Origin: Bacilli bacterium
GTDB taxonomy: Bacteria > Bacillota_I > Bacilli_A > RF39 > UBA660
DNA: 64,000 nucleotides
Assembly: GCA_036648855.1 (NCBI GenBank)
Contig: JAVWCU010000001.1
Location: 3,121 to 67,120, forward strand
Direction of reading: 5' to 3'
Position numbers and translations under genes: made by a program. A model generated the notes under the pieces. It worked only from the letters and a program-made list of their open reading frames with translations. It did not search any database and had not been told where the DNA came from. Of the stretch, positions 11,582 to 64,000 are shown piece by piece. Numbering within the stretch: the first letter of the stretch is position 1; every line of letters starts with the position of its first letter.

Positions 11582-11592
11582 ATAAAATATTA

Positions 11593-14884: not shown

Positions 14885-14915
14885 AATTGTTTCCTCCCAA
14901 ATATAATATTAGAAT

Positions 14916-15101: not shown

Positions 15102-15198
15102 TATACTATCCTCCTTTCTTTTTTATCTGTTTCGTCTTAATTTTCAAAGACTCATCAGGGAGCATCTACACTCCGACAGATAAGAATCAATAGCCAAA

Positions 15199-15741: not shown

Positions 15742-15844
15742 AATATTCTCCTTGCTGTTATTGGCACGTCAGCTTAGCCTATTTTTAAAAATGTTTAAAT
15801 AAACACAAAAAAGCCTAGTAAATTACTAGACTCTATCTATCTAT

Positions 15845-16300: not shown

Positions 16301-16564
16301 ATTCCTTTTCTAATTGCTTTATTATTATTTTTATTTCTTTTGTTTCTTTTGCTTCCTTAATAGTCATTGCTATTAAGCTTATTGATACGATCATTGCTAA
16401 TACTATTATTAATATCATTGCTACATCTCCTAAGCTCTTTAAGGTATCTCCACCATTATGTTTTTGTATTGACTCTGTATTTTACACTGGCTTGTCACAG
16501 TCCTTGGCTACATTAATACAAATTAGGAAATAAGCTATATAAGCTCATTCCCTAATAACAGTAT

Positions 16565-17083: not shown

Positions 17084-17145
17084 AATACACCTCTATGGTA
17101 GTGGTACGTCATTGCGTATTTTTCCAATCTACCGGTTATATAAAA
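17084..17145 (-). promoter_or_regulatory. conserved class II 5' leader, copy 1
   Basis: plus-strand TAATACACCTCTATGGTAGTGGTACGTCATTGCGTATTTTTCCAATCTACC. About 75 % identical over 55 nt to 17792-17850. Confidence 0.45.
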
Positions 17146-17197
17146 AGAAGAGCAGATTATATCATCTACTCTTCTAATGAACTACTTATTACTACTA

Positions 17198-17791: not shown

Positions 17792-17852
17792 AATACACCT
17801 CCGTGATAGTGGCATGACGTTGCATGTGATTCCAATCTATCTGTGTACATTG
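17792..17852 (-). promoter_or_regulatory. conserved class II 5' leader, copy 2
   Basis: plus-strand TAATACACCTCCGTGATAGTGGCATGACGTTGCATGTGATTCCAATCTATC. Confidence 0.45.
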
Positions 17853-26500: not shown

Positions 26501-28751
26501 AATAGAAAAAAAGATATATTCGACAATTTAATGTCTCGCTTTACAGAAATGTAAAGGCAATAACCTTTTGAATTCAGGGAAACTCCAGAACGGACAACCT
26601 CTGAGCCAAGCCTAGAAATAGGAAGGTGCAACGACTATCGAAAACACGAATATCCGAGAAACACGGTTTTTGAAAGTGAGTAGAGTAGGGTCAAGCGACT
26701 CGAAGCGGAAGGGCTCTTAACAGATAAAGCTGAAGAGTATGATATAGTCTGAGCTATATGGGAACATATAGAAGGATGGAAATAGCGATTCCATTCGTAA
26801 CATAACTGAAATACGGAGCTTCGTCTTCTATATTAATACTTGACTATGATATGCAACTTGGCAAGTTTAAAGTATTTAAAAGAATAGAAGTTCCTAGATC
26901 AGAATACTCTTATGATGCAGCTGTTAATCTTATAATAGAATTAAATGAGATATATAATCCTTCATTTATATATTGTGATGCTGGTAGTGGTGAAATACAA
27001 ATTTATTAATTACATATAATAAGATTATTAAACTAATCGGAGGTATATGTATGTTTCCAATATGGATAAACAAAGCAATTGAATTAAGAAAAAACGGACT
27101 ATCTTACGCTAAGATAGGAAAGCTATTAAACACAGATAGAAAGAAGGTTAGTTTTTATCTACAAGAAAAAGGATATGGTCCTTCTAAAGCATATAAAAAA
27201 GCAAAGGAATTTAATCAACCAAATAAAAAAGCTATTAATGAAAATGTATTTGAAAAAATAGATACAGAAGAAAAAGCATATTGGTTGGGATTCATGTATG
27301 CTGATGGATGTGTTAATAGAACTTCTAACAGAATAGAATTATCTTTAAAAGAAGAAGATTATAGTCATATTGTTAAATTTAAAAACTTTTTAGAAAGTGA
27401 ACATATAATAGGAAAGAAATCTAAAACAATTAAAGATAAAACATATATAAGTTATCGACTTGGAATAACAAATGAAAAATTAAAAAATGATTTAATAAAG
27501 CACGGATGCGTGCCTAATAAAACTAAAGTTCTTCAATTTCCTAAATTAAATAAAAAACTTGTTAAACATTTTATAAGAGGATATTTAGATGGAGATGGAT
27601 GCATTACTCATCAAGCTACTTCTAAAATGAGTTTAGAAATATTAGGTACAGAAGAATTTTTAAGAGCTATATTAGATTATTATAATTTTCCAAATGACAA
27701 ATACATTTATACTTTTAAGCATTCAGATATAAAAAGGTTAATCTTATCTGGTCCAAAAGCTTTTGAAGTAATAGATGACTTATATAAAAAATCTAATATT
27801 TATTTAGAACGTAAATTCAATTTGTATAATAAATTCGCCCCTTTATTTAGAGATAAATAAAGAGTAGCGGGCAAAATCGGTAGAGGTGTTAGCGTGCTAG
27901 TACCGAGGTAACATATATGATAATCATATTGTACCGTAACGCATAGTGACTGAAAAGATATAATGTCGCCAAGAGTGTCCGCCACAGAGTCTTACCAACT
28001 CTCTTAGCCTAAGTAATAACTTAGGGTGAAAATGTATGCTAGACTGAACATGAAATAACATGTTGATGAAAATGAGTGAAAGCTCCAGAGCCTAAGATAA
28101 AAAGCTTAGGGTTAATAACATTCGGAATATCAAATAGAAAGATTACATATCTACGGAGAGGAGAATCCTCGTTCTGGATTAAAAGCCAAAGTTAAAAGAT
28201 GACAGTTTTCTAACAAGTTAGATATCATGGACCCAATAACAAAAGAAATAGAAAAGAAGCCACTTAAACCATTTATGGTCAATCAGCTTCAAATAGTCTT
28301 TGAAAGAGATAAATTAATATTATCTCCATACGATGCAATTCTTACTAAACAATTAGTAGATTATGAAGTTGAAAAAATAACAGAAGCGGGTATTCCCAAA
28401 TACACTTCTGAAAATGAACATTTTGTTGACGCATTAGGTTTAGCATATCTTGCAATGGTTCTTGAGTTTAAAGACTTAACAGGAGTTATAGAAGATATAC
28501 AAACTACTAGCGATTTCTTTATCTCTCATAAACAAGTAGGTGGAAATGCTATGAAAATTCAAGCAGAAACAAGAGCTAGAGCTGATAATAGAATAACAAA
28601 CTTTTATGAAAATACAGACTTTAGAGATTTAGAAGGCGATAGACAAAAGTGGGTAAAAGTAGATATGGAGTATCGTTCACCAAAAGTTCAATCAAGTAGA
28701 GGTGCAAGAGGTTGAGGTTCTAGGTCCGCAGGTAGTTTTAGCAGATTTTAA
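23568..28751 (+). CDS. terL: terminase large subunit, split into four exons (approximately 23568-24026, 25205-25675, 26830-26995 and 28215-28751) by three group I introns
   Basis: Exon 1: adenine-binding W-YQ plus Walker A RCGRRIGKTE. Exon 2: WIFIDE Walker B, SST coupling motif, NPNWDSQMEAELRAQL. Exon 3: IYCDAGSGE nuclease motif. Exon 4: LQIVFERDKLIL...NEHFVDALGLAYLAM nuclease C-terminus. The order matches T4 gp17. Each exon-frame ORF ends at a TAA inside the following intron. Six in-frame TGA across the exons. AAGGAGTG RBS before ATG 23568. Confidence 0.75.
24027..25204 (+). mobile_element. group I intron 1 in terL (boundaries approximate) carrying a LAGLIDADG endonuclease ORF
   Basis: splitting after GAT (..RGQRAD) and resuming at TGAATATTT restores RGQRADWIFIDE, which aligns with T4 RGNSFAMIYIDE. 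The 3' 300 nt are GC-richer and contain P7-like GACTA ... ATAGTC. The intron would end in G. Confidence 0.6.
24103..24924 (+). CDS. LAGLIDADG homing endonuclease (273 aa) with N-terminal HTH-like domain; two in-frame TGA (24133, 24652)
   Basis: motifs AYFLGFIMADGNM and FIRGYIDGDGW. Own RBS GAGGTGATTACAATG. TAA stop 24922-24924. Confidence 0.75.
25676..26829 (+). mobile_element. group I intron 2 in terL (boundaries approximate, +/-30 nt)
   Basis: non-coding 26555-26829 is GC-richer with CAACGACTA ... ATGATATAGTC, a P7-like pair, like intron 1. Confidence 0.55.
25754..26554 (+). CDS. LAGLIDADG homing endonuclease (266 aa), paralog of 24103..24924
   Basis: AYWLGFIAADGNI and FIRGYFDGDGNI. RBS GAGGTGATTATATG. 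No TGA. Confidence 0.75.
   Translation: MITKEELEKYINKKISFKQVSVELNISYNTVLRYAKKYNLKSGIGTKGAQKHTINENYFEMIDTEEKAYWLGFIAADGNIHSSVKNKPINRLQINLKGNDIGHLKAFNSTLLSSYNVEEKQVNKYNVCQLKINSTKLCSDLQKLGITPRKSLNVEMPILPKELIKHFIRGYFDGDGNIKNFTDKNGRHRYNFNIVGGIDMLTAIKNNIPCETLIYNLKRQAPIYSLETTKKDNLITIYNYLYKNANIYLNRKKDIFDNLMSRFTEM
26996..28214 (+). mobile_element. group I intron 3 in terL (boundaries approximate)
   Basis: HE ORF followed by about 350 nt of GC-richer structured RNA (27861-28214). The exon 4 reading frame opens at about 28215. Confidence 0.5.
27051..27860 (+). CDS. LAGLIDADG homing endonuclease (269 aa), third paralog
   Basis: AYWLGFMYADGCV and FIRGYLDGDGCI. RBS GGAGGTATATGTATG. No TGA. Confidence 0.75.
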   Translation: MFPIWINKAIELRKNGLSYAKIGKLLNTDRKKVSFYLQEKGYGPSKAYKKAKEFNQPNKKAINENVFEKIDTEEKAYWLGFMYADGCVNRTSNRIELSLKEEDYSHIVKFKNFLESEHIIGKKSKTIKDKTYISYRLGITNEKLKNDLIKHGCVPNKTKVLQFPKLNKKLVKHFIRGYLDGDGCITHQATSKMSLEILGTEEFLRAILDYYNFPNDKYIYTFKHSDIKRLILSGPKAFEVIDDLYKKSNIYLERKFNLYNKFAPLFRDK

Positions 28752-43886: not shown

Positions 43887-43920
43887 AATAATAACTCAAA
43901 TAAAAGGAGGAATGTTCAAA

Positions 43921-44589
43921 ATGGCTAACAACATGTCTAGTGAACAATATACTAAAACGTATACTACTTTTGGTGGTAGTGATATAGTAGCTACTTTCAA
44001 TGGAAAAGTTATAGGTGAATTACAAGCAATCACTTATTCAATAACAAGAGAGAAGGTTCCTGTTTACACTATGGGTTCTGCAGAGCCAAGATCATTCTCA
44101 AGAGGAAAAAGAGGGATCGCAGGAAACTTAGTATTTGTAACTTTCAATAGAGATGCTTTACTTTCTGAATTAGCTGATGGACCATTAATACAAAAATATA
44201 AAGCTAATAACCAATTCACTCAAGGTGATAATGGAGCTGCTCAATTCATGTCAATAGAAGAGTGGGACGCTCATATGTCTTCTCTATCTGGTGGTGGAAA
44301 AAATAATGGAGATGGAACTACTGGTAAAAGTTTAAGTGACATGGTAAGTACATACAAAGCAAGATATGCTGATGAAATACTTCCATTTGATATAACTATC
44401 ACTTTCGCTAATGAATATGGTAACAAAGCTTCTACAGTATTATATGGTGTAGAATTATTAAATGAAGGAACAGGATACTCTATAGATGCTCCTACTTCAG
44501 AAAGAGCTTATACATTTGTTTGTAGATCAGTTGAAACTATGAAACCAATAAATGATGAATACAAAGGATTCATAAGCACTACTTGGTAA
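43921..44589 (+). CDS. tail tube protein (222 aa)
   Basis: directly downstream of the sheath gene. AAAGGAGG RBS. Followed by a strong terminator. N-terminal core is shared with the next two genes. No TGA. Confidence 0.6.
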   Translation: MANNMSSEQYTKTYTTFGGSDIVATFNGKVIGELQAITYSITREKVPVYTMGSAEPRSFSRGKRGIAGNLVFVTFNRDALLSELADGPLIQKYKANNQFTQGDNGAAQFMSIEEWDAHMSSLSGGGKNNGDGTTGKSLSDMVSTYKARYADEILPFDITITFANEYGNKASTVLYGVELLNEGTGYSIDAPTSERAYTFVCRSVETMKPINDEYKGFISTTW

Positions 44590-44598
44590 TAACCACAA

Positions 44599-44632
44599 GG
44601 AGAGGGAAAGAGATTTCTCTCTCTTTTTTATT
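44599..44632 (+). terminator. rho-independent terminator after the tube gene
   Basis: GGAGAGGGAAAGAG-ATTT-CTCTCTC followed by TTTTTTATT. Confidence 0.6.
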
Positions 44633-44675
44633 GCATATAATAAAAACATTAAACTTATACATAAAGGAGGACAAT

Positions 44676-47264
44676 ATGGCTACATTTAATTTAAATGGTT
44701 ATGATAGCTATTCTGGTTGCGATATCGTTGTTACTGCTAGACTAAATACTATAAGTGGTGGTAATGGCTCAGGAAAAGAAAAAGTATATACACTAGGCTC
44801 TATACAAACTCTTAGTATCTCCACACATCAAGATAAAAAACCTGTTAGAGTAATAGGAAGTGTAAATGCTCTTGATTATACAATGGGACAAAGAACAATA
44901 GCAGGTTCTTTAGTATTTGCTGTATTTGACCAACATTTTGCAACAGAGATGTTTAAAGACTTAGAAAAGATTACAGGTAAAACATTTTTCTTGCCAGATG
45001 AACTTCCAGCAATAGACTTAACAATTACTTTTGCTAATGAATATGGAAGAACATCTAGGATGGCTATATACGGAGTTAGAATAATTAATGAAGGGCAAGT
45101 AATGTCTATAAATGATTTATATACAGAAAACACTTATCAGTTTGTTGCTAACTCAATGGAGCCTTTAAAAAAGGGAACGCAAACAGGATCTAATTCAGAT
45201 AAGAATAAAGAAATACAAATAGCAACTAATTCTGATTTAGGAGATTCTAATCCTGTTTACAATGGAGAAGATATATTTACATATTCATTTGATAAAGATG
45301 AAAGCTCTTTAAAAAGAGTACTACTAAACGTAGATGTAGAGCAACCTACTTATGAAGGACAAGATGGTATTGCTAAATTTGGATTATCGCCTATTCAAAA
45401 AACAGGACTAGTAATTGTTTACAATCAACTTCAAGATAAAATAGAAACAGAGATATACATAACAAATGAACATACAAATATATATACAGTCTTATTAGAA
45501 CAAGGTTTATACTCTGCATGGTATGAAGACAATGGTCAAACTTTATCTAATACAGTAGTATTTTCTATAGATAAGGTAGGAAATTATAATATGAATTATG
45601 ATGATTCACCAATCATAGAAGATGTCAGTATTGATAAAATACAAATCTTATCCAACAATCCTTCTCATACAGCAGCGGTTTGTATTAATAATATATCCAA
45701 TAAATATTTAGAAATGGATTTATCATCTAGAAAATGTACATTTAAAAATCTAGAAGAAAATACAACTTATACTATTTATACTAAACATGAAAATTCGAAC
45801 TCTAAAAACATAATGTGTAAAACTTTAACAAAACAAGAAGAATATGTTACAGGTTTTAAAAGTTATGTTTATTATAATTCTAATTTATTATCTACAGATA
45901 TTGAAAACTACAAAGAAATATTAGATGAACTTAATAATGACCAAGAAGTATTATATACATTGTCAAAAAATAAATCTGATAAAGCTAAAGAAATTATATA
46001 TATGGCAACTAAATATAAAAATGAATTTAATAGAATCATTAATGAAGATAAAATTAATCTTATTCCAACTAAGAATTTAGATAATATATTTGGAAATACT
46101 TTTAAATTTAATAGTGGAGCATTAAAAGGAAATATATTTTCTGTTAAAAATAAAAAAGAATATTTTGTTTATTCAGAAAGTTATCCTATTGAAATAACTT
46201 ATAATGGAAAACAAAATTGGACATATAGTGCTACATCTATAGCTAACGATTATATAAAGTCTCCTAAATATGTTTATTATAATTTTGCTGAAAATGATAA
46301 AGCAAAAATAAGCAATTTATATGGAGAGGCTAATGTTTTAGATAAAATAGATTTAACAGACTATATTGCGAAAAATAGAAAATACTCAAATAATATATTA
46401 CAATGTTTAGCTGTTAAAGATAATAAGAATATAGATTTAAAATTATTAAAAGCTCCTCATGTAACATTAGATGAATATAGCAATATGATATTCGATGTAA
46501 ACTATAAAGACTTATTAGGAACAAGTAATAAAAACTACTTTATTTGTATATCCAATATTGCAGAATCTTTAGATAAAACATCATTTAGAAAAATTGGAAT
46601 AAAAGATAAAGATGAAAATATATTCGCAACTAAATATCTAACTGCTGCAAATCAAAATGATATTTTTGTAGTATGGATAGAAGATGAAAATAACAACATT
46701 ATATCAGACGTAGCTTTTTGTTCTATGTTAGAAGAAGTAGGAGATTTTAATATGACTCAAATTGAAAAAGCTATAGAAAAAATATTAGCACAAATGAGTT
46801 CATTCTCTTCTAAAAATAATATGTATGACATCATCTATTCTATAGCTAATGAAAATGTATCTATGAAAAACTTATATTATGAAATGGCAAAAACATTTAT
46901 AGACTTAAATATAACTAATTTAAATTCATCTTTATTTGACTTATTTAAAGTTAAATTTAATGAATACTATATAAATCAAGATAAGTATAGAAAAGTATTT
47001 TATAACAAAAATGAAAATAAAATAAGCTTTGAAACATTAAGTAAAAACGCACAATTAGTTAACATAAAGTTCAAACAAAATTATAATTATGAAATAGAAG
47101 TTAAAGATGAGCTTAGTACGACATTAGATACAGAATATGATTATCATTTAGTATATTTAATAGATAGTAATCCAATTATAAAATCTGGTTTTATATTTAT
47201 AGATTCTGGATACAAAGCTAATGCTCATAGTATTAGCATAGAGGAGGTAGAATGTAATGACTAA
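44676..47264 (+). CDS. tube-domain protein with ~670-aa C-terminal extension (862 aa)
   Basis: N-terminal 190 aa are paralogous to the tube protein (IDLTITFANEYGRTSRMAIYGVRIINEG versus FDITITFANEYGNKASTVLYGVELLNEG). AAAGGAGG 5 nt upstream of ATG 44676. No TGA. Confidence 0.55.
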   Translation: MATFNLNGYDSYSGCDIVVTARLNTISGGNGSGKEKVYTLGSIQTLSISTHQDKKPVRVIGSVNALDYTMGQRTIAGSLVFAVFDQHFATEMFKDLEKITGKTFFLPDELPAIDLTITFANEYGRTSRMAIYGVRIINEGQVMSINDLYTENTYQFVANSMEPLKKGTQTGSNSDKNKEIQIATNSDLGDSNPVYNGEDIFTYSFDKDESSLKRVLLNVDVEQPTYEGQDGIAKFGLSPIQKTGLVIVYNQLQDKIETEIYITNEHTNIYTVLLEQGLYSAWYEDNGQTLSNTVVFSIDKVGNYNMNYDDSPIIEDVSIDKIQILSNNPSHTAAVCINNISNKYLEMDLSSRKCTFKNLEENTTYTIYTKHENSNSKNIMCKTLTKQEEYVTGFKSYVYYNSNLLSTDIENYKEILDELNNDQEVLYTLSKNKSDKAKEIIYMATKYKNEFNRIINEDKINLIPTKNLDNIFGNTFKFNSGALKGNIFSVKNKKEYFVYSESYPIEITYNGKQNWTYSATSIANDYIKSPKYVYYNFAENDKAKISNLYGEANVLDKIDLTDYIAKNRKYSNNILQCLAVKDNKNIDLKLLKAPHVTLDEYSNMIFDVNYKDLLGTSNKNYFICISNIAESLDKTSFRKIGIKDKDENIFATKYLTAANQNDIFVVWIEDENNNIISDVAFCSMLEEVGDFNMTQIEKAIEKILAQMSSFSSKNNMYDIIYSIANENVSMKNLYYEMAKTFIDLNITNLNSSLFDLFKVKFNEYYINQDKYRKVFYNKNENKISFETLSKNAQLVNIKFKQNYNYEIEVKDELSTTLDTEYDYHLVYLIDSNPIIKSGFIFIDSGYKANAHSISIEEVECND

Positions 47265-49624: not shown

Positions 49625-52600
49625 TTGGCTAAAAAAAGAAGAGATAAAGAACGAGACCCCTCTTCAATAGAACAAGTTGCCAAAGTTGGAAAAGCTGCAT
49701 TATCTTTAGGGATTGGTGCAGCTTCTTTTACTAAAAAGGGATATGCTAGAAAACTTACTAGTGAAGTAGCACCAGCTTTAATTGGTACAACTAGAGCTAT
49801 TAAAAAAGATGTGCGTAACATTCGTTCAACTAAAAAAGGCATAAGCAAAAGATTAGATATCAAAGATTTAGAAAGCGTTTATAAAAGTCATTTAAAAGAA
49901 AATAAAACTTTTAAAAAACAATTAAAAGAAAACGCAATTGGTAAAAAGAAAAATGTTAAATTAAATATTGATGGTAAAAATAAATCTATCTTTGGTCAAT
50001 ACATAAACTATCAACAAGTAGTTAGTAATGAACTTAGAAGAACTTCTAGAGATTTGTATAGAGGTAAAAAAGAAACAGATTTTATAAATAATCAATTAAC
50101 AGGTTTATTTAAAAATAAAAATACTGACCATTTAAGAGAAGCTGCTTTTGATGCATTTGCTAAAATAGAAGAATTTACAACTGTTAATTCCAAGGGCGAG
50201 AAATTCTTTTCTCCTTTCATAGATGATAGTATTAAAAGATTAGATTTTGACAAAAAAGAAAGACAAATATTCTTAGAAAAAATATGAAATGAAAAAGAAA
50301 AAATTATCAAAGATTCGAAAGAAGAGCAGAAATACTCTGGCATAGAAAAGAATATTAAAAAGTTACTTGAAGAAAAACTTATGAAAAGTAAAAAGCAATC
50401 TGATACAACTTTTGGAAAGCTATCATCATTAGTAAAAAAAGTAACAAATAAAGACGTAGATTTAGAAATGGAAATATTGAATTCTCGTGGATTAACAGTA
50501 GGAGAATTCTTAGAAACTATAAATGATTCTAAAAATAAAGATATGTTTGATATGTCTCAATTTAATGTTAAATTAAAAAATAATGTTGGTAACAAAAATA
50601 ATAAGTATCAAGAAAAAAATATTATTGAAGAATTGACAGAATATGTAAGAAAAAATGAAGATTTCAAAAATGTATTAGTTGATGATTCATTAAGAATCGG
50701 TAGAGATGGACAAATATTTGATACTAATGATATGGATAATTTAAATGCAGCTATGTATAGAAAGTTTTCATCTTCTACTTTAGGCTCATTATTTTGGCAA
50801 ACAGATGTTAGATTAGGAAGAGAAACTCCGATACTTGCTCATGTTAGAGCAGGGCTTACAGGATCAGAAGCTGTTTATGAAGCTGGTAATAAAGGAGAAA
50901 CTTTACTTAAAGAAGGTAAAGTCATGTTAGCTAATGGTAGAACTAGATCAGCTGATTTATATGAAGTTAAATTAAACAGCAATGACGAATTAGTTTTAGA
51001 TATGAATCCTTTATCTGTTGATGGTTATATAAAAAATAATAAACATGGTAAAATGTCTAGAGCAAATAGAGAAGTAGTAGGTTCTAATAGAGATCCACTA
51101 GCAGCTATAGACGATGAATTTTTACAGCTACTTGATATAGGACAATCAGGCTCTCCAACATTAGCAGATAAATTAAAATCTAGATTTTCAAAAGGAAGCA
51201 ATTCTGATTGAATTAAAAATATTATAGATAGAACAAAGTCATTAGTTAACGATGATATGTCTGTTCAAGAAAGAATAGATATAACTGCTAAAAACAAATT
51301 AGCAGGTTCATTAACGAATGACGACTATGCAAATCAAATACTATATGAAGAATCTAGAGCAACTATAGCTGCACAATTACTTAAAGATACTAAAGAAGTA
51401 TCGTCTTTATTAAATGATTATACAGCTATGCACCAAATAGATTCTAATACTATAACTTCTTTACTAAATTCAACTATAGCAAATGATAATGGAGAAATCA
51501 CTAACTTAATTAAAGATGAACACTCAAGAAGAATATTACAAGCTTTAAGTAGCTTAGATGATATGAATACATCTCCTATGAATATCTTATCAGCGATATC
51601 TGCGAAAGAAGGCTCTTTCACTTTTGAAAAACTTTACAATAAAGATTTAGAGAATATCATAAATAGAGGACTTGTAAATACAGACCATATTATTCATATG
51701 CAAAATATTTCTCAACTTAAATGGGCAAGTTTCATTAATAATGAAGCAACTAATGTTATGGAAATAAAAGATATTATTAGAAGAGAAAGTATGAAAGAAG
51801 TATTACTAAGAGAAACTGCTGGAGGCATGGGAGTAACTGGAGATGTTATTTTTAATTCTGAAAGTATTAGTAGTTTAGAGAAAATACTATCTCATGAGAA
51901 CTTAACAAAAGAACAAGCTAATAATTTAAGATACGTAGCAAACTGGGGAGTAATGCAAAGTTCTTTAGGTATGTACAACGATACAGATGCTACTTTAAAC
52001 CTTTTAGATATTATGGGACCAGATGGTACAATAACTAAATTTGAAAACTTAATGAAAACTAATCCTAACTTTAAAGCAGAGTATAAAAGAATGTTAGATG
52101 ATATGTCATCAAATTATAATATATTTGATGCTGGAACTATAGGAAATATAAATGAAAACTATGCAGATGAATTTGCTAACTTTACATATAGTAAAAAATC
52201 AGCTCTGCATATTGATAACATATTGAATATAAATTCTATAAATGATGCTATCAAGTTAGCTGGTCAAGCTAAAAATGAAATCTTAGCTGGAAGACATGAC
52301 CTTGAAAATTATACTACATTAACTCAAATACCACAGTTTATGGTATCAAGACTTTCATGGGGATTAGAAGATTTAGGCTTAGGCTTTTCTAATAAAAGCA
52401 CAAGTTCTACTTTAGAACAAATAAAATCAATTGCTTTAAAAAGAGTTTTACCTGTAGCAGCAGCATTGAGCATATATGATTATATGGATTATGAATCAGA
52501 AAACTTTACAGGTGTATCTATGACAGGAGCAGCAGCTAATACTTTATCAAATTTTGACATAGCTTCTAGAAAATTAGCTTATTCAACTGGAGTAGGACAA

Positions 52601-55600
52601 GCATTAGATTGGTTTAAAGAATCGTCTATTGTAGGAGAATACTGGACAGGAACAACTGATTATCAAACAGCTGAAGAAAGAGAAGAATGGTATGAAAATG
52701 GATACCAAGCTGTTAGAGGAGGGCGTTTTTGGGGAATAGGTTCTACTTCAGAATTCAGAGGCTCTGCTATTCAATATTATCAACCTAACTATTTGAAAAG
52801 AGCACATTCTAATTGAAAAGAAATAGGTATATATGGAGATGCAGAAGAGAAATTCTCTCACAGCTGATTGCCTTCACTTAGACATCCTTTATCACCTCTC
52901 AAAGCAGCATTTGACCCATATTGATTAGAAAAAAAGAATATGGAAGATAGACCATACCCTATGACAGGTAAGATGTTCTCTGAAGGAACTCCTTGGGGAG
53001 CAGTGCTTAATCCTACTATTGGAGAAATATTAAAACCTGTTAGAACTTTGCCAGAAGTTAGAAGAAGACTTGGCAATGACGGTAGGGATATAAGATCTGT
53101 TGTAGAAGGAATAAATGAAAGAATAAAAAATAGAGCTAATGAAAATGATGATATGCTTATCATTAAAGGTACTGATATTAGAAATGCTTCTTATATTCCT
53201 TATGCTTCTCCTAATGATGGCTCTATGAATATTACATTTAGAGATGGAATGGCTATGGCTCCTGGAATAGGATATATGGAAGATGTATCTAATTTAAAAG
53301 GTTTTGTTCCTGCTAATGGAGAAATCAATGGAAATATGGATATGTCTTTAGTTGATGGAGATACAGAATTTGAACAAGCTGCTATAGGTATAACACAAGA
53401 ACTAAAACAAACTTCATATGATTCTAATTTAGTAGTTAATGATATATTATCAAATATAAATAAAGGTATTAAAAACTTAGGAGCTAAGTTTACATCTTAT
53501 GCTGGCGGCTCAAATAGTGCTTATAGTACAGATGGAACTATGCCAGATTTAGCACAAGGGACATATGTATATCAAAACTTAGTTAATCAAAGAAAAGTAT
53601 TTAATAGCAATTATTATGCTGATAACTATGACTATAAAATGCTTGATAGGAATATAGCAAATAATTACATGAGAGATTTTACAGGTTCTGTAAGAGAATT
53701 ATCTGGTATATATAATTTCTTAGGTGGTCTTGCATTTGGTGAAGATAGTTGAACATTTGAACTTGAAAATGCAAATAATATGACGAGTTTTTCTAGGCAT
53801 TTCTGAGATTCACAAGCTGGTGGAGTTGGTGGAGAATTCATGGAGATTGCTAGACGTTTTTTTGCATCAGAAGATAAATCTAGAATTAAATATAATCCTC
53901 TTAAAAATAGTATGGAAGAATGATTACCTTCAAGATTCTTAACAGGTGACCCATATACTGAACTTCCTAAAGGAGAAATGAGACTTCCTGGCAAGGGCTT
54001 TGAATCTATACATGATTTACATCCAGACCAGTTCGGTGAGTATGGTGCCTTTGATAGAATGAAGATACTTGGAGATGTTGCTCCTACTTCTGAAGAATAT
54101 AAGATATGGAGAAACATAGCTAGAAATACTATATCTGACGAAAACTTAATGAAGCAAATGGATGATATAGAACACCGTGCTCAGAAGATGTCTTCTAAAC
54201 ATGAGTTTTATGATTATAGATATTACAATAATAATCTAGATACTAAACACGGTATTGTTAAAAGTTGGAATAAAAATGTTGTAACTTTATCAAGTGGAGA
54301 ACAATTGAGACTTGGTGGTATTAATTTAACAGAAGAGGCTGACTTATCACAAGTGTTAACCGTTGGTCAAAAAATACATTACAGCTCATCTAAAGATGCT
54401 ATTAAAAAATTAGAAGATGGTATAGTAACTAATGCTGTTATCTATGAAAAACAAGGAGCATTTGGAACTAACATAAATAAATCTTTAGTAGATATGGGAA
54501 TGGCTGAAAGAGATGATCAAGATAAATCTGCTATAGGATATATGGCTAACGCTTCCAGTCTTCAACAAAGTTTAGGTATGGTCCAAGAAATGATAGGACA
54601 TGCCAATATCCCATTTGTACATAACAAATTCTTAAATATAGAAACTGCTAGAGAGTCTTATAAAAATGAGCATGTATATGGAACAACATTTGCTACTTGG
54701 GATCATCCAATAAAAGGTTTTGTTCAACCAATGTTAAATCAAACGTTTGGACAAAGTATGGCACAACATGCACTTGCAGTAGGCTCTTCTGCTTTATACT
54801 TTAGACTCAAAGAACATGGCACTAGCAAAGGTGTTAAATTTGCAGCAGGAGCAGCCATGGCTACAGCTAACCCTTCGGTTCTACTTGGTATGGGAGTAGA
54901 GTTTATAAATAAATTAGGTGTCAATGCAGTAGGTGGAGGAAGCAATTCTTTAAATATAGAAAGAGGGGCAAAGATAGGTTCTGTTATAGGGACTATAGGC
55001 TGAGGGCTTGCTAATGCAGAAAACCCATTAAAAGCAACTGCTTCATTTGCTATAGCTGGTGAAACTATATCAACTTATCTTAAAGCTGGAGAACATTATG
55101 GAGTAGGAAAAGGAGCCTTAATAGGAGCTGGTATTGGACTTGCAGTATCAGCAATAAAGAATCCTGGATTCTCTAAAGAGATGTTTAGAAGTAAGTGAAT
55201 ACCTAAAGATACTGAAAAGAAATATGAAATGGATGAATACTTTGATAGGCTTGAATACATAAAAAATAAAGGTTTATATGAACAAGCTTCTTTAAGAGCT
55301 GGATTGTTCGAAGGTAATCATACCATAAAAGCAGTATTTAGAAAATTAGATAAAAATAAAGAAAAAATAGGAAGGCTTACAAAAAAGGCTGAAAAACTTA
55401 GTAATAAACATTCAGCAGGTGGTTATGAGTATGAACAAGAAATGCTCAAAATTAATGAAAAGATAATGGCCCTTCAATCACAACAAACAGCTTTTAAAGG
55501 TGGTAAGTATACTAAGGCAGCAGTAGCTTACAAAAAAGCAATGGACTCTACCATATATGGAATGAGCGAAGGAGCAACGCCAGACGAAATATTATCTTCT

Positions 55601-56152
55601 GTACCTGTTCAATATAAAGACCACTTTAAATCTTTCATAGACGAAAGAAGTAAAAGTGAACGAAAAAAAATATTAAAAGAATTACCAGAATATCTACGTA
55701 AGCCTTTACAAATTGCTTGGGGTGAAAATGTTGACAAAATAGATAGTAATGGAAAGTTTTTCAAAAAACATGAATTACCATCTATGGCATGAAAAGGATG
55801 AAAGCCTAGCATAAATCTAAAACATGTTAAGATGAAAACTATTCAAAACGAAGGTATGTTGCTTTCTAATTTTGGATATTACGATTCTGAAAAATCTAAA
55901 ATGGAATATCATATGGCACCTGATATAAATAATTTTGATAAAGGCGGTAGCAGTGGCTTAAGTTATATGGCCAGTATGACGGCAGCATTGTCAGGAGTTG
56001 GAATGACAGTACAAAACATTACTGTTGAACCAACATCCGCTCCAGGATTATGAATAGTTGGAGATATAAAACAAACTGCTAAAGATATAGGTAAGATAGG
56101 TGATTATGCAGTAAACTCAGGAATTCAAACTCTAACTTCACTATTATTCTAA
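49625..56152 (+). CDS. tail tape measure protein (2175 aa) with 13 in-frame TGA
   Basis: seven track ORFs (49625, 50381, 51257, 52940, 53978, 55229, 55832) are all in one frame. Every gap was checked codon by codon and contains only TGA, never TAA/TAG, until TAA 56150-56152. Gly-rich hydrophobic stretch GALIGAGIGLAVSAI near the C-terminus. Sits after the chaperones. GAAGGTGA RBS with TTG start. Confidence 0.65.
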
Positions 56153-56555: not shown

Positions 56556-59500
56556 ATGGCTTATAATAAAAAGACAACCGTATATGAATCTAATTATGAT
56601 TTAGCTTTAAAAGCTAAGTTAAAACAACAAGCTATCAAAAAGATGGAAGATAGAAACACTATGTCTAAAGAAGATATGTTTAACTATTTAGAATACTTAG
56701 CTCCTGGTAATGATTATGTAAAAGAAAGCAATCTAATAATCAAAGCTAGTAAAAATAAAGTATTGAAAAATAAAAGTTTAAGACCCGATTACAAAGACGT
56801 TAATGATATATTAAAAAACTTAAAAGAATATAATTTTTATGACATTATATCTAATAAAAACCAGACAGGTTCTGAACTGATTAAAAAGACTATAGATTTC
56901 AATGGGAAGATATTTCATAGTAATCAAAAAGGAGGTTCATCAAATGAATCTTTAGGTACATGGAATGAATCTTTTAGAAATTTCACTAGTTTAAAAAAAC
57001 AAGCTAAACTAGGAAATGAAGCAACTGTATTTGGATTTGACTTAGAGACTGTCGGAAGTTCACTTCCTGAAGGCATGTGGAAAGCGGATCACATAACAGA
57101 GTTTTCTATGCAAGAGATGAATTTAGCAACTAATGAAATATTAAGAAATGACACTATTGCTATTGGTCTAACAGAAGACCAAGGTAAGAAAATTATTGAT
57201 GATATAGAAAAAGCTATTAAAAGTGGAACTTTAGAAAAGAACGAAAATTTAAGAGTTTCTGCTATGAGATATAGTTTATATGGAGATGATAAAGTTACAT
57301 ATGAAAAAACAGCTGAAGGATATTATAAATTTACAAATTTTATAGATTCTAAAAAACATGAAATGTATAACATTGAAAAAATCAAAGCTGGTGTAAACAA
57401 GTTCGTCTCTATGGGTAATGACACTGATTATATAAATGGAGTAAGAGCAGATCACTATTATGTAGGACAATCAATAAAACATATGAAAGACAAAGTAGTT
57501 GATAAACAAACTGCTATGTTATTAGGACAAAATCATTTAGGACATGATAATCCTATTATGCAATATCAAATGTCTTTATGAAATGAACTATATAAAGATA
57601 AAACTAATATGTTCGAAAATCTAGATTTAACAATGTCACCAAATCAAACAATAGATTTACTTGGAGGCCTTAGACTTCATTCAGAATATTACGATACAGG
57701 AGATTTATATCCTAAAGCAAAAGGATTAAATATGTCTGAAGTTAAAACTATTAGAGGGCAAGAATACTTAGTACAAAGTCACTTAAAAAAATGGTTTGAA
57801 CAAAAAGGATTAAAACCCCATTTAGCAGAAGATGATGTTACAGCTTTACTTGGATTATTTACTATGGATTCAGAAATATTAAAAAGTGGAACTTTAGTTG
57901 ATTTAATAGGCGATAAGATGTCTAAAGTTAATTATAAAGAAACAGCTTTAGAAACAAATAAGCATATTTTAAAAGCTAAAAAAAGAGCTGGTCTTTATCA
58001 AGGTAAAGGTTATTTAAATTTTGCTAATGACAAAGAAGGGAATATATATACTGCCAGTGATCATATCTTAAGTGATACAGATGGATTTGCTAAATCTAAC
58101 GGAGGAGTTATTCATAATGATTTCAATGTTGGTGCAGGAATCAATAAAGGGGCATTTTATGATTTAAAAGATATACAAGAAATAACTATTGATGACAATA
58201 TAAGATCTCAAATAGATAAAGTAGCACCAGAGTATTCTGGAAATAAATTATACCATGTTAAACTTGGAATGATAACTTCAGATAATCACAAAGATACTAG
58301 ACTTGGAAATTTAGAGCAAAATATAATATTAAAAAGTGAACAAGAATTACAAGGATTCTTAAGTTCTACATTTGATGTTGTAGCAAAAAGAGATGAAAAT
58401 GGAAATATACAAATAGCTAAAGAACATATAGAAGATTTTGATATTAGAAAACTATCAGATGTTAAAGGAAGAGCTGTAGCTAAAGATGTTAATAAAAATT
58501 ATGATAAAAATCATAATGAATTATTAGAATCAGCTGTAGAAGCTCATAATAAAAAGCTATTAGTTTCTAGAGCTGAAAATTCATTTTTACAAGATGATTC
58601 ATTTAATAAATTATCAAAAGCTTTAACTTTAAAAGATGACTTAAAAGATTTCTTAGAACAAGAAAATGTAAAAGTAGAAAGTTTAAAACAAAAAGAAATA
58701 AACCAAATTATGTCTGCTAAAGTTGCTAGTGGCAATATGCCTTTAGGTTTAAATGAAGTACAGCTTGAACATGCCAAAGAAATAATAAATAATGCATTGT
58801 CTTACAAAAAAGATTATGCAGATCCTAATTCAATTACAAGAGTACTTGATTCATCTATAGACAACTATTCATCAGCTATGATTTATGTTGAAAACAATAA
58901 TAATGTATTGTCTAAAATAATAGATACATTAAAACAAAGTGAAATGTTTACAAAAGAAGATGGTAGATATAAAAATTCAACTAAAGAATATAGACAAGAA
59001 GTATTCAATAGAGTTTACAAAAAAGTGAAAGAAGAAACTGCAGAACATATTTATAGAAATCTAAATGTTAACAACCCTATAAAAAACAAAAGTATTTTAA
59101 ATGACGAAACTTTACAAGCTGCTGTAAGTGAATTTAGAAACATATATGAAGTTGATTATAACAAGATAGCTAAAACTCCTAAAGTAAACTTTGTTAGTAT
59201 TGCTAAACCAGAAGAATTACAAAATTTAGTAAAGTTAGATATATCAACAAAAGGTGCTTCATATAAATTAACTGATGCTGCTATAGATGCTGTCTATGGC
59301 AAAGATTATAAAAGAAAAATAGATAATGCTCATAAAAATGTAGCTGTTGCAAAAATGTTTAATTTATTAATGGAAGATGAAAATTTAAAAGAAACAGATG
59401 CTTTTAAAGGTATTATGTCTAGATACGGATATAATGAAAAGACTAAAAGTTTTAAAGAAAATATAAATCATATAGATATATCTGAGCGTATTGTTTCTGG

Positions 59501-62500
59501 CATGCAATCATTAAAAGAAAAGAATGTTACAGCTGGAATAGTTAATACAAAAAGAGCTTTTATGAAATCTTTAGAAGGAACCTCTGGTTATACCAAAGCT
59601 TTAAACAGCGAAGAAGTATTAAATAAAGTAGATGATATAGCAAAAAGTGTTTTAGATAATTTAGATATGACAATTATAAACACAGCTAAACCAAAAGATC
59701 AAATATCAGAATTAGTTGAAAATAAGATATTAAAACATTATATAGCTGATAGCAATACTGTTGAAAAAGCTCAAGATTGGGTTAATAATCCTCAATTAGA
59801 AATGTTATATAAAAAAGGAAAAAAAGATTTAAAAGAATATCTTACTGATACAATATATGGATTTACTAAATTAGGAGCAGAAGTCTCTGTACAAGAAAAT
59901 GGTGCATTAATTGTTTCTAGAAATGGTGAAACAAAAGCTTTAGAAACAATACCTAAAATACTTTTAAATGATAAAACTTTATACACAGAAATAGGCAGTC
60001 AAAAGTTTCAGTTTAATAGAGTGTTAGATATTAAAGGTGGTACAAGATTAGAAGGAGATGTAAAGACTACTATAAGTAGTATCAATAAGTATAGCAATAG
60101 TGCTTATGTTGATAAGTTAGCAGAAGAATTTGATCTTAATAAAGTTTATGATTCTTTATGGTCACGTATAGGAAGAGATATAAATGAAATAAGAAAAGGT
60201 TCAACTATTAATGGATTCAGTGGAAATGATATCATATCGAATTACAATGTTGATATGGGTGAAATCAAAAATGTATTATATGATATATTTAATAAAGATG
60301 GCAATCATTATGGATTATTTGATAACATAGATTTCCCTGATAAACAAATACAAGAAACATTAAAAAAGAAACTAGAAAATGTAGGTCCTAATAAACTTGA
60401 TAATAAAGGACAATTAAAAGAACTAGGGCCAGATATTACTAGAGATATTGCAAAAGATACTATTCATATGTTGCAAGAATTAGCTAATAAACAAGGTTTT
60501 ACAGATGACTTTAAAACAATCGTAGCTCAATTAGGATTATCTGGACAAGAAAAAAGAGTAGCTGGATTAACAGCCTACTCTGGAATAGAAAGACCTACAA
60601 ACTCTGTATTTGGTGTATTCGATAATGTACAAAGACCGCCTATTACTCAGTCTGGTAATGCAAAATTCTTAAGAGAATCTGATATAGAAAAAGCTAAAGA
60701 TTTAAATGTATTAGCTGGAAACGTAATTAGTTCTGCGTCTATGAATGCTAAAGGATATAGAAATTTTGATGGGGTAGGAAAAGCTTCAACAGATGTAATG
60801 ATGGATATATCTTATGTATCTACAAACGCTTTACATGTATTAATGGAGAGTAACTTTGAAGACGTTATTAATAAATCTAGTGTAGAATATGGAACAAAAG
60901 AAGCATCCAAAAAAGCTATGGAGCATTTAAAGAGTACACTATCTACATTTGAACAAGAAAGAATTATTGACTCTAGAGTTCATGAAGCTGTATATGGATT
61001 ACAAACAGCTAATACTCAAAAGCTTAGTAGAAATCTAGATGCAATAGGTATGTCTAAAGAACTTACAGATGAAGAATTCAAAAAGCAATTTGATTTCATA
61101 ACTAATCATAGAGGCAATTTTTCATATTCTAATGGTAAGCTAGAATTTAAATCTTCTGTTGGTACATATGTTAAACGAGGAGAAGGAACTATACAAACTA
61201 AAGGTTTTGCAGATTTACCTACATCGTTCTCTTCTAAAATGAAAGATGGAGTATTTAATTTTAATTTCTATAATGAAAATGGAATGAAACTTAGAGATAA
61301 TGAAATAAATAATTTAATAAATGATAATATAGAACACTTTATTAAAGATGGCAAACTTGTAGATAAAGCAGCTTTGCCAAAAATATTAGAAGATTTATTA
61401 GAAACTAAAAATATTAAAGGTCAATATGCTATAGAAGATGCAGCCGCTTTAGGATACGCTAAAACAATGACTAGCGGTGCTGAAAAAGGTATGACTGATA
61501 TTGTATATGCTACTACTGGTAGATACAATAAAGAAATAGAAAAAGTCTTTAAAAATATTGGCATGTGGGATGATGTTAAAGCAAAAGTTTTAACAGAAGA
61601 AGGAACAGATGCTATATTGAAAAGAGGTATGGATAGATTTATAGGTAAACATACAGATATGACTCCTGAGCAAAATATACTTCATGGAACTAGCTTTAAA
61701 AATATTAAAGAATTAAAATCAGCAATGGAAACAGAAAGACATATGAATTCTAAATTATTGTTTGAACATGTACTTGGCGGTAAGACTCATATGTTAGCAA
61801 ATGATAATATATTAGGACATGAAAACTTTGGAGCGATGTATCAAGGTTCTTTATCTAAAGCTATAGATCTTTTTGGTAAAAATCATAAAGATGGTTCAGA
61901 TGGAGCTATTAAAGAAATTATTGACATCATGAATAATGGTGTTGAAAAAACTTTAAAAGATGGTACTGTAAAGAAGATAGATGCTTCAGAATTTCAATTT
62001 TTAGAAAACTGGAATCTTAAAGATGGTAAAGTTGACATAGGAAACATAGGAGTTCAATATAAAAATGGTCGATTCCATATCAATGAAAATTTTTTAACTA
62101 ATCCAGACAATGTATCTAATCTTAATTCAAAGAAATTCAATAATTTATTAAGAGAGATAGATTCAAGATTTGCTAAAGACGACTCTTCTGATGATAGATT
62201 AGTATGGAATAATGTTTATATGCAAACTGGAGATGTGGACGAAAAAGGAACACCTGTTTTAAAAAAAGTAGATGAAGTCGTTGGTTCATTTTTCACTAGA
62301 GAAATAGATGGAAAAAGAGTAATACTTGGTACTCAATCTAGAGAAAATAATAAATATGTTACAGATGTAGAAACACAATCTGGAGTAACAGATGAATATT
62401 TCCAACTAAAAAAAGCTATTAAAAAAAATAAAATAGATTTAATAAATAATCAAAAGTCATTAAATGAAACTGATGATAAGCATTTAAAAGCATCGCTAAT

Positions 62501-63416
62501 AGAAGAAAAAATTTCATTAGAAGCAAAAGGGCATAAATTAGAATCTGAATTAAGCTCTTATGATGGTGCTGTAAAAACAATGAAAGTATCTGATCAAGAA
62601 TTATCTATTTATAACAGAGTTGCTATAACTCAATCCCATGTTAATAAAGTCAATGATTTAATAAGCGAAGGTAAAATAACTGATGAATCATTAGCAGTAG
62701 ATTCTCTAAGAGGACATGTTATAAAAAATGTTGATGGCCAAATAATGTTAGAAGGCCTTGGGCTTGAAAATGAATTAAATTCAAATAAAGATGTCTATAG
62801 CAAAGGTGGAATTAGAGTACTAGATCCTTTTGTATCAAGATTAAAAGAGAAATTGCTTTTCAATGAATTAGAGGATGAAGTATTAACAATGAAATATGTT
62901 AATAAACATCCAGAACTTCTAGACATATATAATAAAGCAGATAGCAGAGGAGAAACAATAGGAATTAATAAAGCTAAAGAAATACATCAAGGACAGCTCT
63001 CTATAGATTCATATAATTTCAATCTTAGCTCACAAACATCTGAACAAGTTAAAGCATTAGAAAATAAAGGTTTTAGAAGAACTAATATAAATGAATTATC
63101 TTTTGATGCTGATGATGTTGCTACAGAGAATTTATTAATTGACTTTGGTGAGGAATTTAAAGAACATAGATATTTAGCAGTTCCTGGCAACGGTAAATCT
63201 ATAATGGATGAAGATCTTAGAAAAGAAAGTCAAAATCAATTAGCAAGTCTTCAACATAGATACCAAGAGTATGCATCTTACAAAGGAAAAGATCCTGAAA
63301 AAACAGAGCAATTATGAAATAACATCATTAAACAAAGAGATGATGTCATGGATACAATAGAAAATGAGATGTACGGTAAGCATGGTATATTCCATAATGC
63401 TTCTAAAGTTGAAATA
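56556..63416 (+). CDS. giant virion-associated protein (2286 aa); two in-frame TGA (57579, 63315)
   Basis: fragments 56556..57581 and 57609..63317 share a frame. Reading TGA 63315 as Trp adds 33 codons to TAG 63414-63416; checked. Lies downstream of the tape measure gene. Confidence 0.6.
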
Positions 63417-64000
63417 GATAATGCTTCTTATCGTTTAAAAGCTTCTGGTATAATAGGAGACCAAACTAATCCTACTCTTAGAAACTATGCTTCTCATAAT
63501 GGAGTTAATGTTATAGATTCTTCTAAAGCTGGAGTATTAGATATCGCTATAATAGATGGAAAGACAATAACTGAATTAGAAAGCAAAGGAGTTTATCATG
63601 ATTATAAATTTGTATCTAGAGATCAAATGGATAACATGGGATTCTTTAGAGAAGACAGGCTTAAACAATTTGGATTTGAAGATGATGCTAGCAGTACTGC
63701 TATTGAAAAAATGGAGGATTTTTTAAAGACTCATGGTACTATGGATTTATCCGACCGTTATCCAAATACAAAAACAGGTTCTATCTCTACTGCTAGAGTA
63801 TTTTTAGACAGCACTTTAACTGGAAACCAAACTAAGGTTTCAGCATCGTTAGCTCTTAAAGCTAATGGAGACTTTGATGGAGATTCATTCTCTTCTTTCC
63901 ATTTAGAAAAATATGATAGCGAAGGTCGTAGAATAGACGGAGCTTATTATTCTAAAGTAAAAATTGATATAACTAAACAACTCAATGACGAAGGAATACT
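63368..64000 (+). CDS. two-barrel RNA-polymerase-like protein, N-terminal 211 aa (gene runs off the right edge)
   Basis: Frame +2, open from TAA 63329-63331; ATG 63368. GKHGIFHNASKV (63374-63409) resembles the beta motif GRHGNKGVISKI. NGDFDGDSFSSFH (63863-63901) resembles the beta-prime NADFDGD..H motif. No stop to the window end; checked codon by codon. Confidence 0.5.

What the first reader, a model, noticed from the sequence alone, without database searches (positions are those of the whole stretch)
63332..64000. Overlapping downstream ORF with beta-like and beta-prime-like RNA polymerase signature motifs: candidate virion/two-barrel RNAP
In frame +2, opening inside the last 85 nt of the giant gene, the translation reads ENEMYGKHGIFHNASKV ... 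(155 aa) ... ANGDFDGDSFSSFH.

The first block matches the universal beta-subunit motif (GDK)MAGRHGNKGVISKI in spacing and key residues: M-x-G-[RK]-H-G ... S-K-[IV].

The second block matches the beta-prime catalytic NADFDGD(QMAV)H Mg-binding triad. Beta-like before beta-prime-like is the order seen in single-chain two-DPBB polymerases (crAss-like phage vRNAP, YonO, QDE-1).

The ORF starts at ATG 63368 with a poor RBS. It overlaps the 3' end of the 2286-aa giant gene by 49 nt in the -1 frame. A separate coupled gene or a -1 frameshift fusion to the giant protein are both possible.

The location, downstream of the tape measure among giant virion proteins, fits an injected virion RNAP. Such an enzyme could transcribe the TGA-free early genes.
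Basis: partly seen in the sequence, partly recalled or inferred. Interest (0 to 1): 0.8.

Follow-up and report, generated by a model that had tools for sequence, protein, structure and literature searches.

The report
RNA polymerase core inside giant phage protein
The supposed small overlapping gene is really the tail end of one roughly 3,000-residue phage protein, read through a TGA codon that here codes for an amino acid. That protein contains a fused two-barrel RNA polymerase core of a family not described before, probably carried in the virus particle.

Summary
The DFDGD motif is real (nt 63870-63884). It is the only D-x-D-G-D in all six frames and is invariant in homologs down to about 20% identity.

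There is no separate or frameshifted ORF. The region is in the same frame as the giant gene starting at 56556. The only break is TGA 63315, a sense codon: late genes here carry many in-frame TGAs. About 30 homologs of 2,900-3,050 aa align across it without a gap. The gene runs off the window, and about 500 residues are missing.

So a fused beta + beta-prime two-barrel core exists. The true beta-like module lies about 600 aa upstream.

Pfam, PHROGs and GenBank phages give no hits. The protein also has an N-terminal DEDDh exonuclease-like domain. Its position after the sheath and tube genes and its late-gene TGA coding fit a virion RNAP, but packaging and activity are untested.

The parts
56556..64000 (+). 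Giant gene, one ORF of at least 2,481 codons when TGA is read as sense. It is open at the window end. Full length is inferred as ~2,900-3,050 aa from homologs.
   Evidence: Stop map. Code-4 ORF list. Homologs P0002-P0034 cover 99-100% of the query as single proteins. NCBI's code-11 annotation splits it into RR406_00405 (P0001, 57609-63317) and RR406_00410 (P0035, from ATG 63348).
57579..57581 (+). In-frame TGA (aa 342) read as an amino acid, most likely Trp.
   Evidence: Aligned column is W in 10 homologs, F in 6, Y in 4.
63315..63317 (+). In-frame TGA (aa 2254). This 'stop' created the apparent downstream ORF. It is a sense codon in a variable position.
   Evidence: Homologs align across it with no gap. 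TGA positions differ between related phages, so it is not a conserved programmed stop. A TGA of the related phage L002 aligns with a TGG-encoded Trp of this protein.
57003..57875 (+). N-terminal DEDDh 3'-5' exonuclease-like domain (aa ~150-440). Motifs: FGFDLETVG, GQNHLGHDNPI, HLAEDDVTAL.
   Evidence: D, E, N, D, H, D are invariant in the family. The profile hits 195-aa PDB exonucleases 9mrd_A/9mrc_A on all three motifs in order, E = 0.0012. Pfam gives no hit.
60546..63044 (+). Beta-like (second-largest-subunit-like) module, window aa ~1331-2163. It includes family-invariant K1636, E1643, K1644.
63165..64000 (+). Beta-prime-like double-psi beta-barrel (aa ~2204 to beyond 2481), cut by the window end. 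This is the finding's region.
63360..63410 (+). Only K2275 (63378-63380) is invariant.
   Evidence: Alignments. In the model the Lys lies in a loop after two long helices, just before the strand YRxKxSGxV (63429-63449). My reading of it as the counterpart of beta-prime 'GKRVDYSGRSVI' is by eye only.
63753..63767 (+). DRYPN: the R-x-P element preceding the catalytic loop, counterpart of beta-prime NRAPTLH.
   Evidence: R, P and the following S are invariant. HMMER aligns it to the RNPT/RQPS of AR9, PhiKZ and ASFV largest subunits. Spacing to the Asp triad is 38 aa, against 35 in E. coli beta-prime.
63870..63884 (+). DFDGD: candidate Mg-binding Asp triad (D2439, D2441, D2443).
   Evidence: Invariant D-x-D-G-D. 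Unique in the window. Aligned to NADFDGD of RNAP largest subunits.

Best explanation
Region 63332-64000 is the interior of one giant late gene (56556 to beyond 64000; ~3,000 aa in full) of a contractile-tailed phage. In this phage's late genes TGA codes for an amino acid, almost certainly Trp.

The protein carries these parts in order:
1. A DEDDh exonuclease-like domain.
2. About 900 residues of unknown fold.
3. A beta-like module.
4. A beta-prime-like double-psi barrel with the D-x-D-G-D Mg site (the finding).
5. Beyond the window, a helical region with a bridge-helix-like AKTGLAATG motif, a hydrophobic segment and a conserved tail.

It is therefore a single-chain fusion of both catalytic modules of a multisubunit-type two-barrel RNA polymerase.

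Shown: the single ORF, the family, the folds and the invariant catalytic residues.

Inferred: that it is an active DNA-dependent RNA polymerase; that it is made late and packaged into the virion with the neighbouring giant proteins; and that it is injected to transcribe the TGA-free leftward early genes before the recoding machinery exists.
For: Single ORF:
- Same frame; the only interruptions are TGA codons.
- The neighbouring gene 50381-56152 has 12 in-frame TGAs, while the minus-strand genes 1591-17815 have none.
- 29 full-length homologs of 2,850-3,065 aa cover the junction without a gap.
- P0003's gene has 9 in-frame TGAs called as W.
- TGA positions are not conserved between relatives.

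Fold:
- AlphaFold model of P0003 1330-2529: pLDDT 82, pTM 0.80.
- Foldseek top 50 are all largest subunits.
- The C-terminal model matches only largest subunits and DPBB proteins.
- The PDB sequence-profile search is topped by AR9 and PhiKZ beta-prime-like chains on the catalytic segment.

Conservation:
- K2275, R-x-P, S and D-x-D-G-D-S are invariant or nearly so.
- 72 representatives in 1.84 billion proteins match; nearly all full-length ones are giants of 2,700-3,350 aa with the match at the same relative position.

Context:
- Portal, major head protein, sheath and tube lie just upstream.
- Synteny with a further 3,087-aa gene downstream is seen in L001.
Against: - No sequence-level significance to any known RNAP: best PDB E-value 0.13; Pfam and PHROGs empty.
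- The models are of a 49%-identical homolog, not the window protein. Residue-level superposition on an RNAP active site could not be done.
- The beta-like assignment rests on structure prediction only (searches found nothing by sequence).
- There is no evidence on packaging, activity or template.
- A DEDDh exonuclease is more typical of DNA polymerases than of RNAPs.
- No suppressor tRNA occurs in the window.
Confidence: 0.65

Rival explanations
1. One reading: a separate downstream gene starting near ATG 63368 that overlaps the giant gene, or a -1 frameshift fusion to it.
For: NCBI's standard-code annotation of the same contig calls a separate 446-aa protein from ATG 63348 (P0035, RR406_00410).
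Against: The two parts are in the same frame, separated only by TGA 63315. All full-length homologs are continuous here. In-frame TGAs are abundant in the late genes. In the relatives examined (L001, L002) the in-frame TGAs lie at other positions. No frameshift is needed.
Confidence: 0.02
2. The two-barrel core is a real RNA polymerase but is not packaged. It acts inside the infected cell, for example for late transcription, and merely sits in the structural gene block.
For: No proteomic data exist. PhiKZ/AR9-type phages have non-virion enzymes of this fold, and these are among the best structural matches.
Against: It has in-frame TGAs and sits in the block of TGA-containing genes on the structural strand. 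That fits late expression, which is too late to drive early or middle transcription. It is fused into a ~3,000-aa protein with a C-terminal hydrophobic segment and is flanked by other giant proteins right after the sheath and tube genes, as are known injected proteins. A separate candidate early RNAP exists at 11596-13773.
Confidence: 0.15
3. The two-barrel module works on DNA, as a PolD-like DNA polymerase, primase or repair enzyme with the DEDDh exonuclease as proofreader. It is not a transcriptase.
Confidence: 0.08
4. The module is a catalytically dead structural relic inside an ejection or tail protein.
For: Extreme divergence from all known RNAPs. crAss gp66 was crystallised with its catalytic loop in an inactive conformation (bioRxiv 10.1101/2020.03.07.982082).
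Against: The three Asp, the Gly, the R-x-P, the Ser and Lys 2275 are invariant across homologs at 18-50% identity. That pattern is expected only under selection for catalysis.
Confidence: 0.05

Closest known systems
Multisubunit RNA polymerases of jumbo phages (Bacillus phage AR9 and Pseudomonas phage PhiKZ virion and non-virion RNAPs)
   Different: In those phages beta and beta-prime are split into several polypeptides. Here both modules are fused, in beta then beta-prime order, inside one ~3,000-aa protein that also has an exonuclease-like domain. There is no detectable sequence homology (tblastn against GenBank phages gave no match).
crAss-like phage virion RNAP gp66 (phi14:2; PDB 6VR4)
   Same: A very large (2,180-aa) single-chain virion protein with two DPBB domains, a DxDxD motif and mostly unknown flanking domains. 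It is flanked by other giant virion proteins and transcribes early genes (10.1101/2020.03.07.982082). Recoded stop codons also occur in late genes of many crAss-like phages.
Thermus phage P23-45 gp96, a tape-measure-fused virion RNAP, with gp64 as the non-virion RNAP
   Different: In gp96 the RNAP is the N-terminal part of a true tape measure, and it belongs to the single-subunit phage/plasmid/RNAi clade. Here the RNAP core is in the C-terminal half, is of multisubunit type, and tape-measure identity is not established.
Natural beta-beta-prime fusions of cellular RNAP (the two subunits are fused in some bacteria)
   Same: Both have the beta module followed by the beta-prime module in one chain. 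The P23-45 paper's supplement notes such fusions. The distance from the invariant K-x7-K-G (K1636/K1644), which I read by eye as the beta Lys pair, to the beta-prime-like Lys is 631 aa here. In E. coli rpoB and rpoC joined end to end it is ~615 aa. That correspondence has no sequence or residue-level support.
   Different: Cellular fusions are full-length, easily recognisable orthologs. This protein is unrecognisable by sequence and lacks any detectable alpha/omega partners.

Membership tests
Two-barrel (double-psi beta-barrel) RNA polymerase superfamily | A DPBB domain carrying the D-x-D-x-D metal-binding loop, preceded by [RK]-x-P at 20-100 aa (the filter used in PMC10770324, Supplementary Data 4) | tested here: met
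   R2401-Y-P ... 36 aa ... D2439-F-D-G-D, invariant in the family. The fold matches largest RNAP subunits and minimal DPBB proteins.
Two-barrel (double-psi beta-barrel) RNA polymerase superfamily | A second, beta-type DPBB module contributing basic residues to the active site | tested here: inconclusive
Two-barrel (double-psi beta-barrel) RNA polymerase superfamily | Bridge helix and trigger loop after the catalytic barrel | tested here: inconclusive
   A conserved AKTGLAATG..N..N motif lies at aa ~2673, beyond the window in P0035. It sits at a helix-helix junction in model 2. Largest-subunit alignments lengthen to 272-346 residues when the downstream part is included. The motif resemblance is by eye only.
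Two-barrel (double-psi beta-barrel) RNA polymerase superfamily | Template-dependent RNA synthesis | not testable with these tools
   Needs biochemistry.
crAss-like gp66 vRNAP family | Sequence homology to gp66 orthologs, a QDE-1-like connector, and a crAss-like podovirus genome context | tested here: not met
Virion-packaged (injected) RNA polymerases | Presence in the virion and delivery into the host with the DNA | not testable with these tools
   Only indirect evidence: late/structural block position, TGA-containing gene, giant neighbours, C-terminal hydrophobic segment.
Phage late-gene stop-codon recoding (TGA to Trp, code 4 type) | In-frame TGAs confined to late/structural genes, aligned with Trp or aromatic residues in homologs, with early genes free of TGA | tested here: met
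   Under code 4, plus-strand ORFs include 0 to 12 TGAs each and minus-strand genes 1591-17815 have none. TGA aligns with W/F/Y at aa 342. An L002 TGA aligns with a window TGG Trp. No suppressor tRNA was found in the window.
DEDDh (DnaQ/TREX-like) 3'-5' exonucleases (N-terminal domain of the same protein) | Exo I D-x-E, Exo II N/D...D and Exo III H-x4-D motifs in order | tested here: met
   All six residues are invariant. The profile aligns the three motifs to PDB exonucleases 9mrd_A/9mrc_A, E 0.0012. The fold was not modelled.

The most novel reading that the evidence does not exclude
A previously undescribed lineage of multisubunit-type RNA polymerase in which beta and beta-prime are fused inside a ~3,000-residue injected tail-module protein, together with a DEDDh exonuclease. 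It operates in relay with a second, QDE-1/YonO-like single-chain RNAP encoded among the TGA-free early genes (11596-13773). The packaged enzyme would start transcription in a host that cannot yet read the phage's recoded late genes.
Probability: 0.35. Interest if true: 0.8.

Novelty: new variant of a known kind. Interest (0 to 1): 0.68.

Why it matters
Virion-carried two-barrel RNA polymerases are known from only a few phage groups: PhiKZ-like phages, crAss-like phages and P23-45. Each has changed how the origin of cellular and RNAi polymerases is viewed.

This family (about 70 representative clusters, no annotation anywhere) would add a fourth architecture. It is a fused beta-beta-prime core of multisubunit type, in a giant protein of a sheathed phage whose relative sits in a Paraclostridium (Firmicutes) assembly, joined to an exonuclease.

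It also gives a concrete rationale for late-gene TGA recoding: early genes are TGA-free and could be transcribed by an injected enzyme.

On the practical side, standard-code annotation cuts this gene into meaningless 'hypothetical proteins' in GenBank.

Tried and rejected
- Pfam and PHROGs on the 2,481-aa window protein, and Pfam on three divergent homologs: no meaningful hit.
- tblastn against 50,697 GenBank phage records: no match.
- Whole-protein profile against PDB sequences: nothing.
- Recovering the rest of the contig: P0001 is not on record in the contig index. An exact 52-mer is absent from the GTDB representative genomes and from IMG/VR. The continuation came instead from NCBI protein P0035.
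A homolog fragment was used instead.
- hhalign of the catalytic-region profile to E. coli RpoC was uninformative.
- A conserved programmed stop at 63315 was rejected, because TGA positions differ among relatives.
- The idea that the upstream 1,923-aa protein is a tape measure could not be tested: no PHROG hit.
- The candidate early RNAP shows no relation to the giant's catalytic profile by hhalign and has no PDB sequence hit.

Full report
**1. What is in the sequence**

The window is 29% G+C. In the frame with position mod 3 = 0, after TAA 56511 the only stop codons up to the window end are TGA 57579 and TGA 63315.
- ENEMYGKHGIFHNASKV at 63360-63410
- DRYPN at 63753-63767
- DFDGD at 63870-63884

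So the 'downstream ORF' is in the same frame as the giant gene that starts at ATG 56556. It is not in a -1 frame and does not overlap it. ATGs lie at 63348 and 63369, not 63368.

**2. TGA is a sense codon here**

When TGA is read as sense, the plus-strand block becomes a set of long ORFs. Examples are 50381-56152 (1,923 aa, 12 in-frame TGAs) and 56556 to beyond 64000 (at least 2,481 aa, 2 TGAs). The minus-strand genes at 1591-17815 contain no TGA at all.

A database search with the joined 2,481-aa protein returned 34 proteins:
- The 1,902-aa standard-code fragment of this very gene: NCBI MAG 'Bacilli bacterium' RR406_00405, on a 79,031-bp contig.
- About 29 full-length relatives of 2,850-3,065 aa at 21-49% identity that cover 96-100% of the query.

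These relatives align through aa 2254 (TGA 63315) without any gap. That column is variable: I, K, L, R or M. The other TGA (aa 342) aligns with W (10 homologs), F (6) and Y (4).

The gene for homolog P0003 has nine in-frame TGAs, all called as W. A related phage sits on a 117-kb contig of a Paraclostridium dentum assembly. It has three in-frame TGAs at different positions, and one aligns with a TGG-encoded Trp of the window protein.

The TGA at 63315 is therefore an ordinary recoded codon. It is not a gene boundary, a frameshift site or a conserved programmed stop.

NCBI's code-11 annotation calls the remainder a separate 446-aa protein (P0035, RR406_00410). P0035 starts at ATG 63348 and extends 229 aa beyond the window, up to the next in-frame TGA.

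**3. Is the motif more than chance?**

D-x-D-G-D occurs once in all six frames of the window. Across the family, the following are invariant or nearly so, down to 18-22% overall identity:
- D2439, D2441, G2442, D2443 and S2444
- R2401, P2403 and S2409
- K2275

M, H and the second G are not conserved (YGKNA, FNKNA, SKDG, GKES). Only the Lys is invariant, and the downstream Y-R-x-K-x-S-G is conserved.

**4. What the protein is**

Sequence methods fail:
- Pfam and PHROGs find nothing.
- tblastn against GenBank phages finds nothing.
- A whole-protein profile finds nothing in PDB.

A profile of only the catalytic region gives sub-significant hits. The top two, and six of the top eight, are RNAP largest-subunit chains: AR9 beta-prime-like 7s01_d (E 0.13), PhiKZ 7ogp_A (0.2) and ASFV RPB1 homologs (1.1). 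All are aligned on R-x-P-x4-S ... D-x-D-G-D.

An AlphaFold2 model of P0003 residues 1330-2529 is confident: mean pLDDT 82, pTM 0.80. This segment is 57% identical to the window protein over the part covered by P0001.

Foldseek against the PDB returned only largest RNAP subunits in its top 50. These include AR9, bacterial beta-prime, Pol I A190, archaeal A', PhiKZ gp55 and, at rank 43, crAss gp66. E-values start at about 4e-3 and probabilities reach 1.0.

- Then P23-45 gp96 (6.8) and PolD DP2 (6.3).

The beta-like module therefore lies upstream, at window aa ~1331-2163 (nt ~60546-63044). The finding's region is the beta-prime-like barrel. In the model the barrel has these features:
- K2275 lies in a loop after two long helices.
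- Y-R-x-K-x-S-G-x-V forms the first long strand.
- R-Y-P follows another strand.
- D-x-D-G-D lies in the loop before the last strand.

I read it by eye as the counterpart of beta-prime G-K-R-V-D-Y-S-G-R-S-V-I with a ~12-aa insertion. That reading is unverified.

My eye-based candidates for the beta elements are NVQRPP, FEQERIIDSR and the invariant K1636-x7-K1644-G. No profile comparison supported them, so they remain leads only.

Beyond the window, P0035 carries a conserved AKTGLAATG motif that resembles the bridge-helix signature. This is also by eye only.

**5. Other parts of the protein**

The N-terminal ~150-440 aa has invariant D-x-E, N...D and H-x4-D motifs. Its profile hits 195-aa PDB exonucleases on all three motifs in order, E 0.0012.

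The family consensus also ends with a Gly/Ala-rich hydrophobic segment and a conserved tail. That part lies outside the window.

A full scan of 1.84 billion representative proteins with P0035 found 72 relatives. Nearly all the full-length ones are giants of 2,700-3,350 aa with the match at the same relative position. No ordinary beta-prime protein was found. This is a distinct, modest-sized family.

**6. Context and mechanism**

Upstream on the same strand are a portal, a head protease, a major head protein, a 946-aa tail sheath and tube-like proteins. A 1,923-aa protein with no family hit follows, then this gene. In relative L001 the order is the same, and another 3,087-aa gene follows.

The position after the sheath and tube genes, the giant neighbours and the in-frame TGAs on the structural strand all fit a virion-packaged, injected enzyme. 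Such an enzyme would transcribe the TGA-free leftward genes, as in crAss-like phages, P23-45 and PhiKZ. Packaging and activity are inferred, not shown.

**7. Comparison with known systems**

It works like a virion two-barrel RNAP. It is not a member of the crAss gp66 family: there is no sequence relation, the structural match is weak, and the phage type is different.

Structurally it is closest to multisubunit-type enzymes, especially the phage AR9/PhiKZ ones. It differs from them in being fused beta then beta-prime in one chain and embedded in a giant protein with an exonuclease-like domain. I classify it as a new variant of a known kind.

**8. Verdict**

- Confidence in the single ORF is about 0.97.
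- Confidence in the two-barrel RNAP-like fold is about 0.9.
- Confidence in an active RNAP is about 0.65.
- Confidence in virion delivery is about 0.5.

Noticed in passing
window 11596-13773 (- strand): A TGA-free 726-aa early-strand protein ends with invariant K-Y-P-S-P-S-x-D-E ... (about 50 aa) ... K-H-x-L-A-G-M-D-T-D-Y-D-G. This fits the published [RK]xPx{20,100}DxDxD filter for two-barrel RNAPs. It has 71 homolog clusters of ~705-750 aa, and some sit on the same contigs as homologs of the giant protein. One of 19 members hits Pfam RdRP (QDE-1 family, PF05183) at E 2.2e-4. It is a candidate non-virion RNAP.
   Followed up: partly
window 4204-7602 (- strand): The motif AAGCTNNGCTTATAGAAAAT occurs five times (up to 3 mismatches), always on the minus strand in intergenic DNA upstream of leftward genes. 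None of 100 shuffles reached five (mean 0.39). It is a candidate phage-specific promoter.
   Followed up: partly
window 23568-28751 (+ strand): The large terminase gene appears to be in pieces. The N-terminal ATPase piece 23568-24062 hits terminase PHROGs. Three LAGLIDADG homing-endonuclease ORFs interrupt the region (24103-24924, 25754-26554, 27051-27860; Pfam E 5e-12 to 2e-6), which suggests introns or inteins. The other pieces (25232-25714, 28227-28751) were not verified.
   Followed up: partly
window 1-64000: Strand-asymmetric genetic code. Plus-strand (structural) genes carry in-frame TGAs (up to 12 per gene), while minus-strand genes at 1591-17815 have none. No tRNA or suppressor tRNA gene occurs in the window. 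GenBank annotates the contig with the standard code and so fragments these genes.
   Followed up: partly
window 50381-56152 (+ strand): A 1,923-aa protein with 12 in-frame TGAs lies immediately upstream of the giant gene. It has Gly/Ala-rich hydrophobic stretches near its C-terminus and no PHROG hit. L001 has a 2,169-aa counterpart and a further 3,087-aa gene downstream of the RNAP-like gene.
   Followed up: partly
window 43912-47264 (+ strand): Two adjacent genes (225 aa and 862 aa) share an N-terminal domain matching the same PHROG (9206, labelled 'major head protein', E 2e-50 and 4e-35). They follow the sheath gene, where a tail tube would be expected. The family label looks doubtful.
   Followed up: no
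window 1591-17815 (- strand): Ten of the larger leftward proteins (159-726 aa) have no significant Pfam family; the only match is a sub-threshold SprT-like hit at 15202-15741. No recognisable DNA polymerase, helicase or primase was found among those tested.
   Followed up: no
L002 9545-18571 (Paraclostridium dentum assembly GCA_051651445.1, contig JBOFSH010000242.1): A 46%-identical copy of the giant gene lies on a 117-kb contig of an isolate-labelled assembly. It is also fragmented by standard-code gene calling (1,890 + 442 + 515 aa). This points to a Clostridia host and a possibly cultivable relative.
   Followed up: partly
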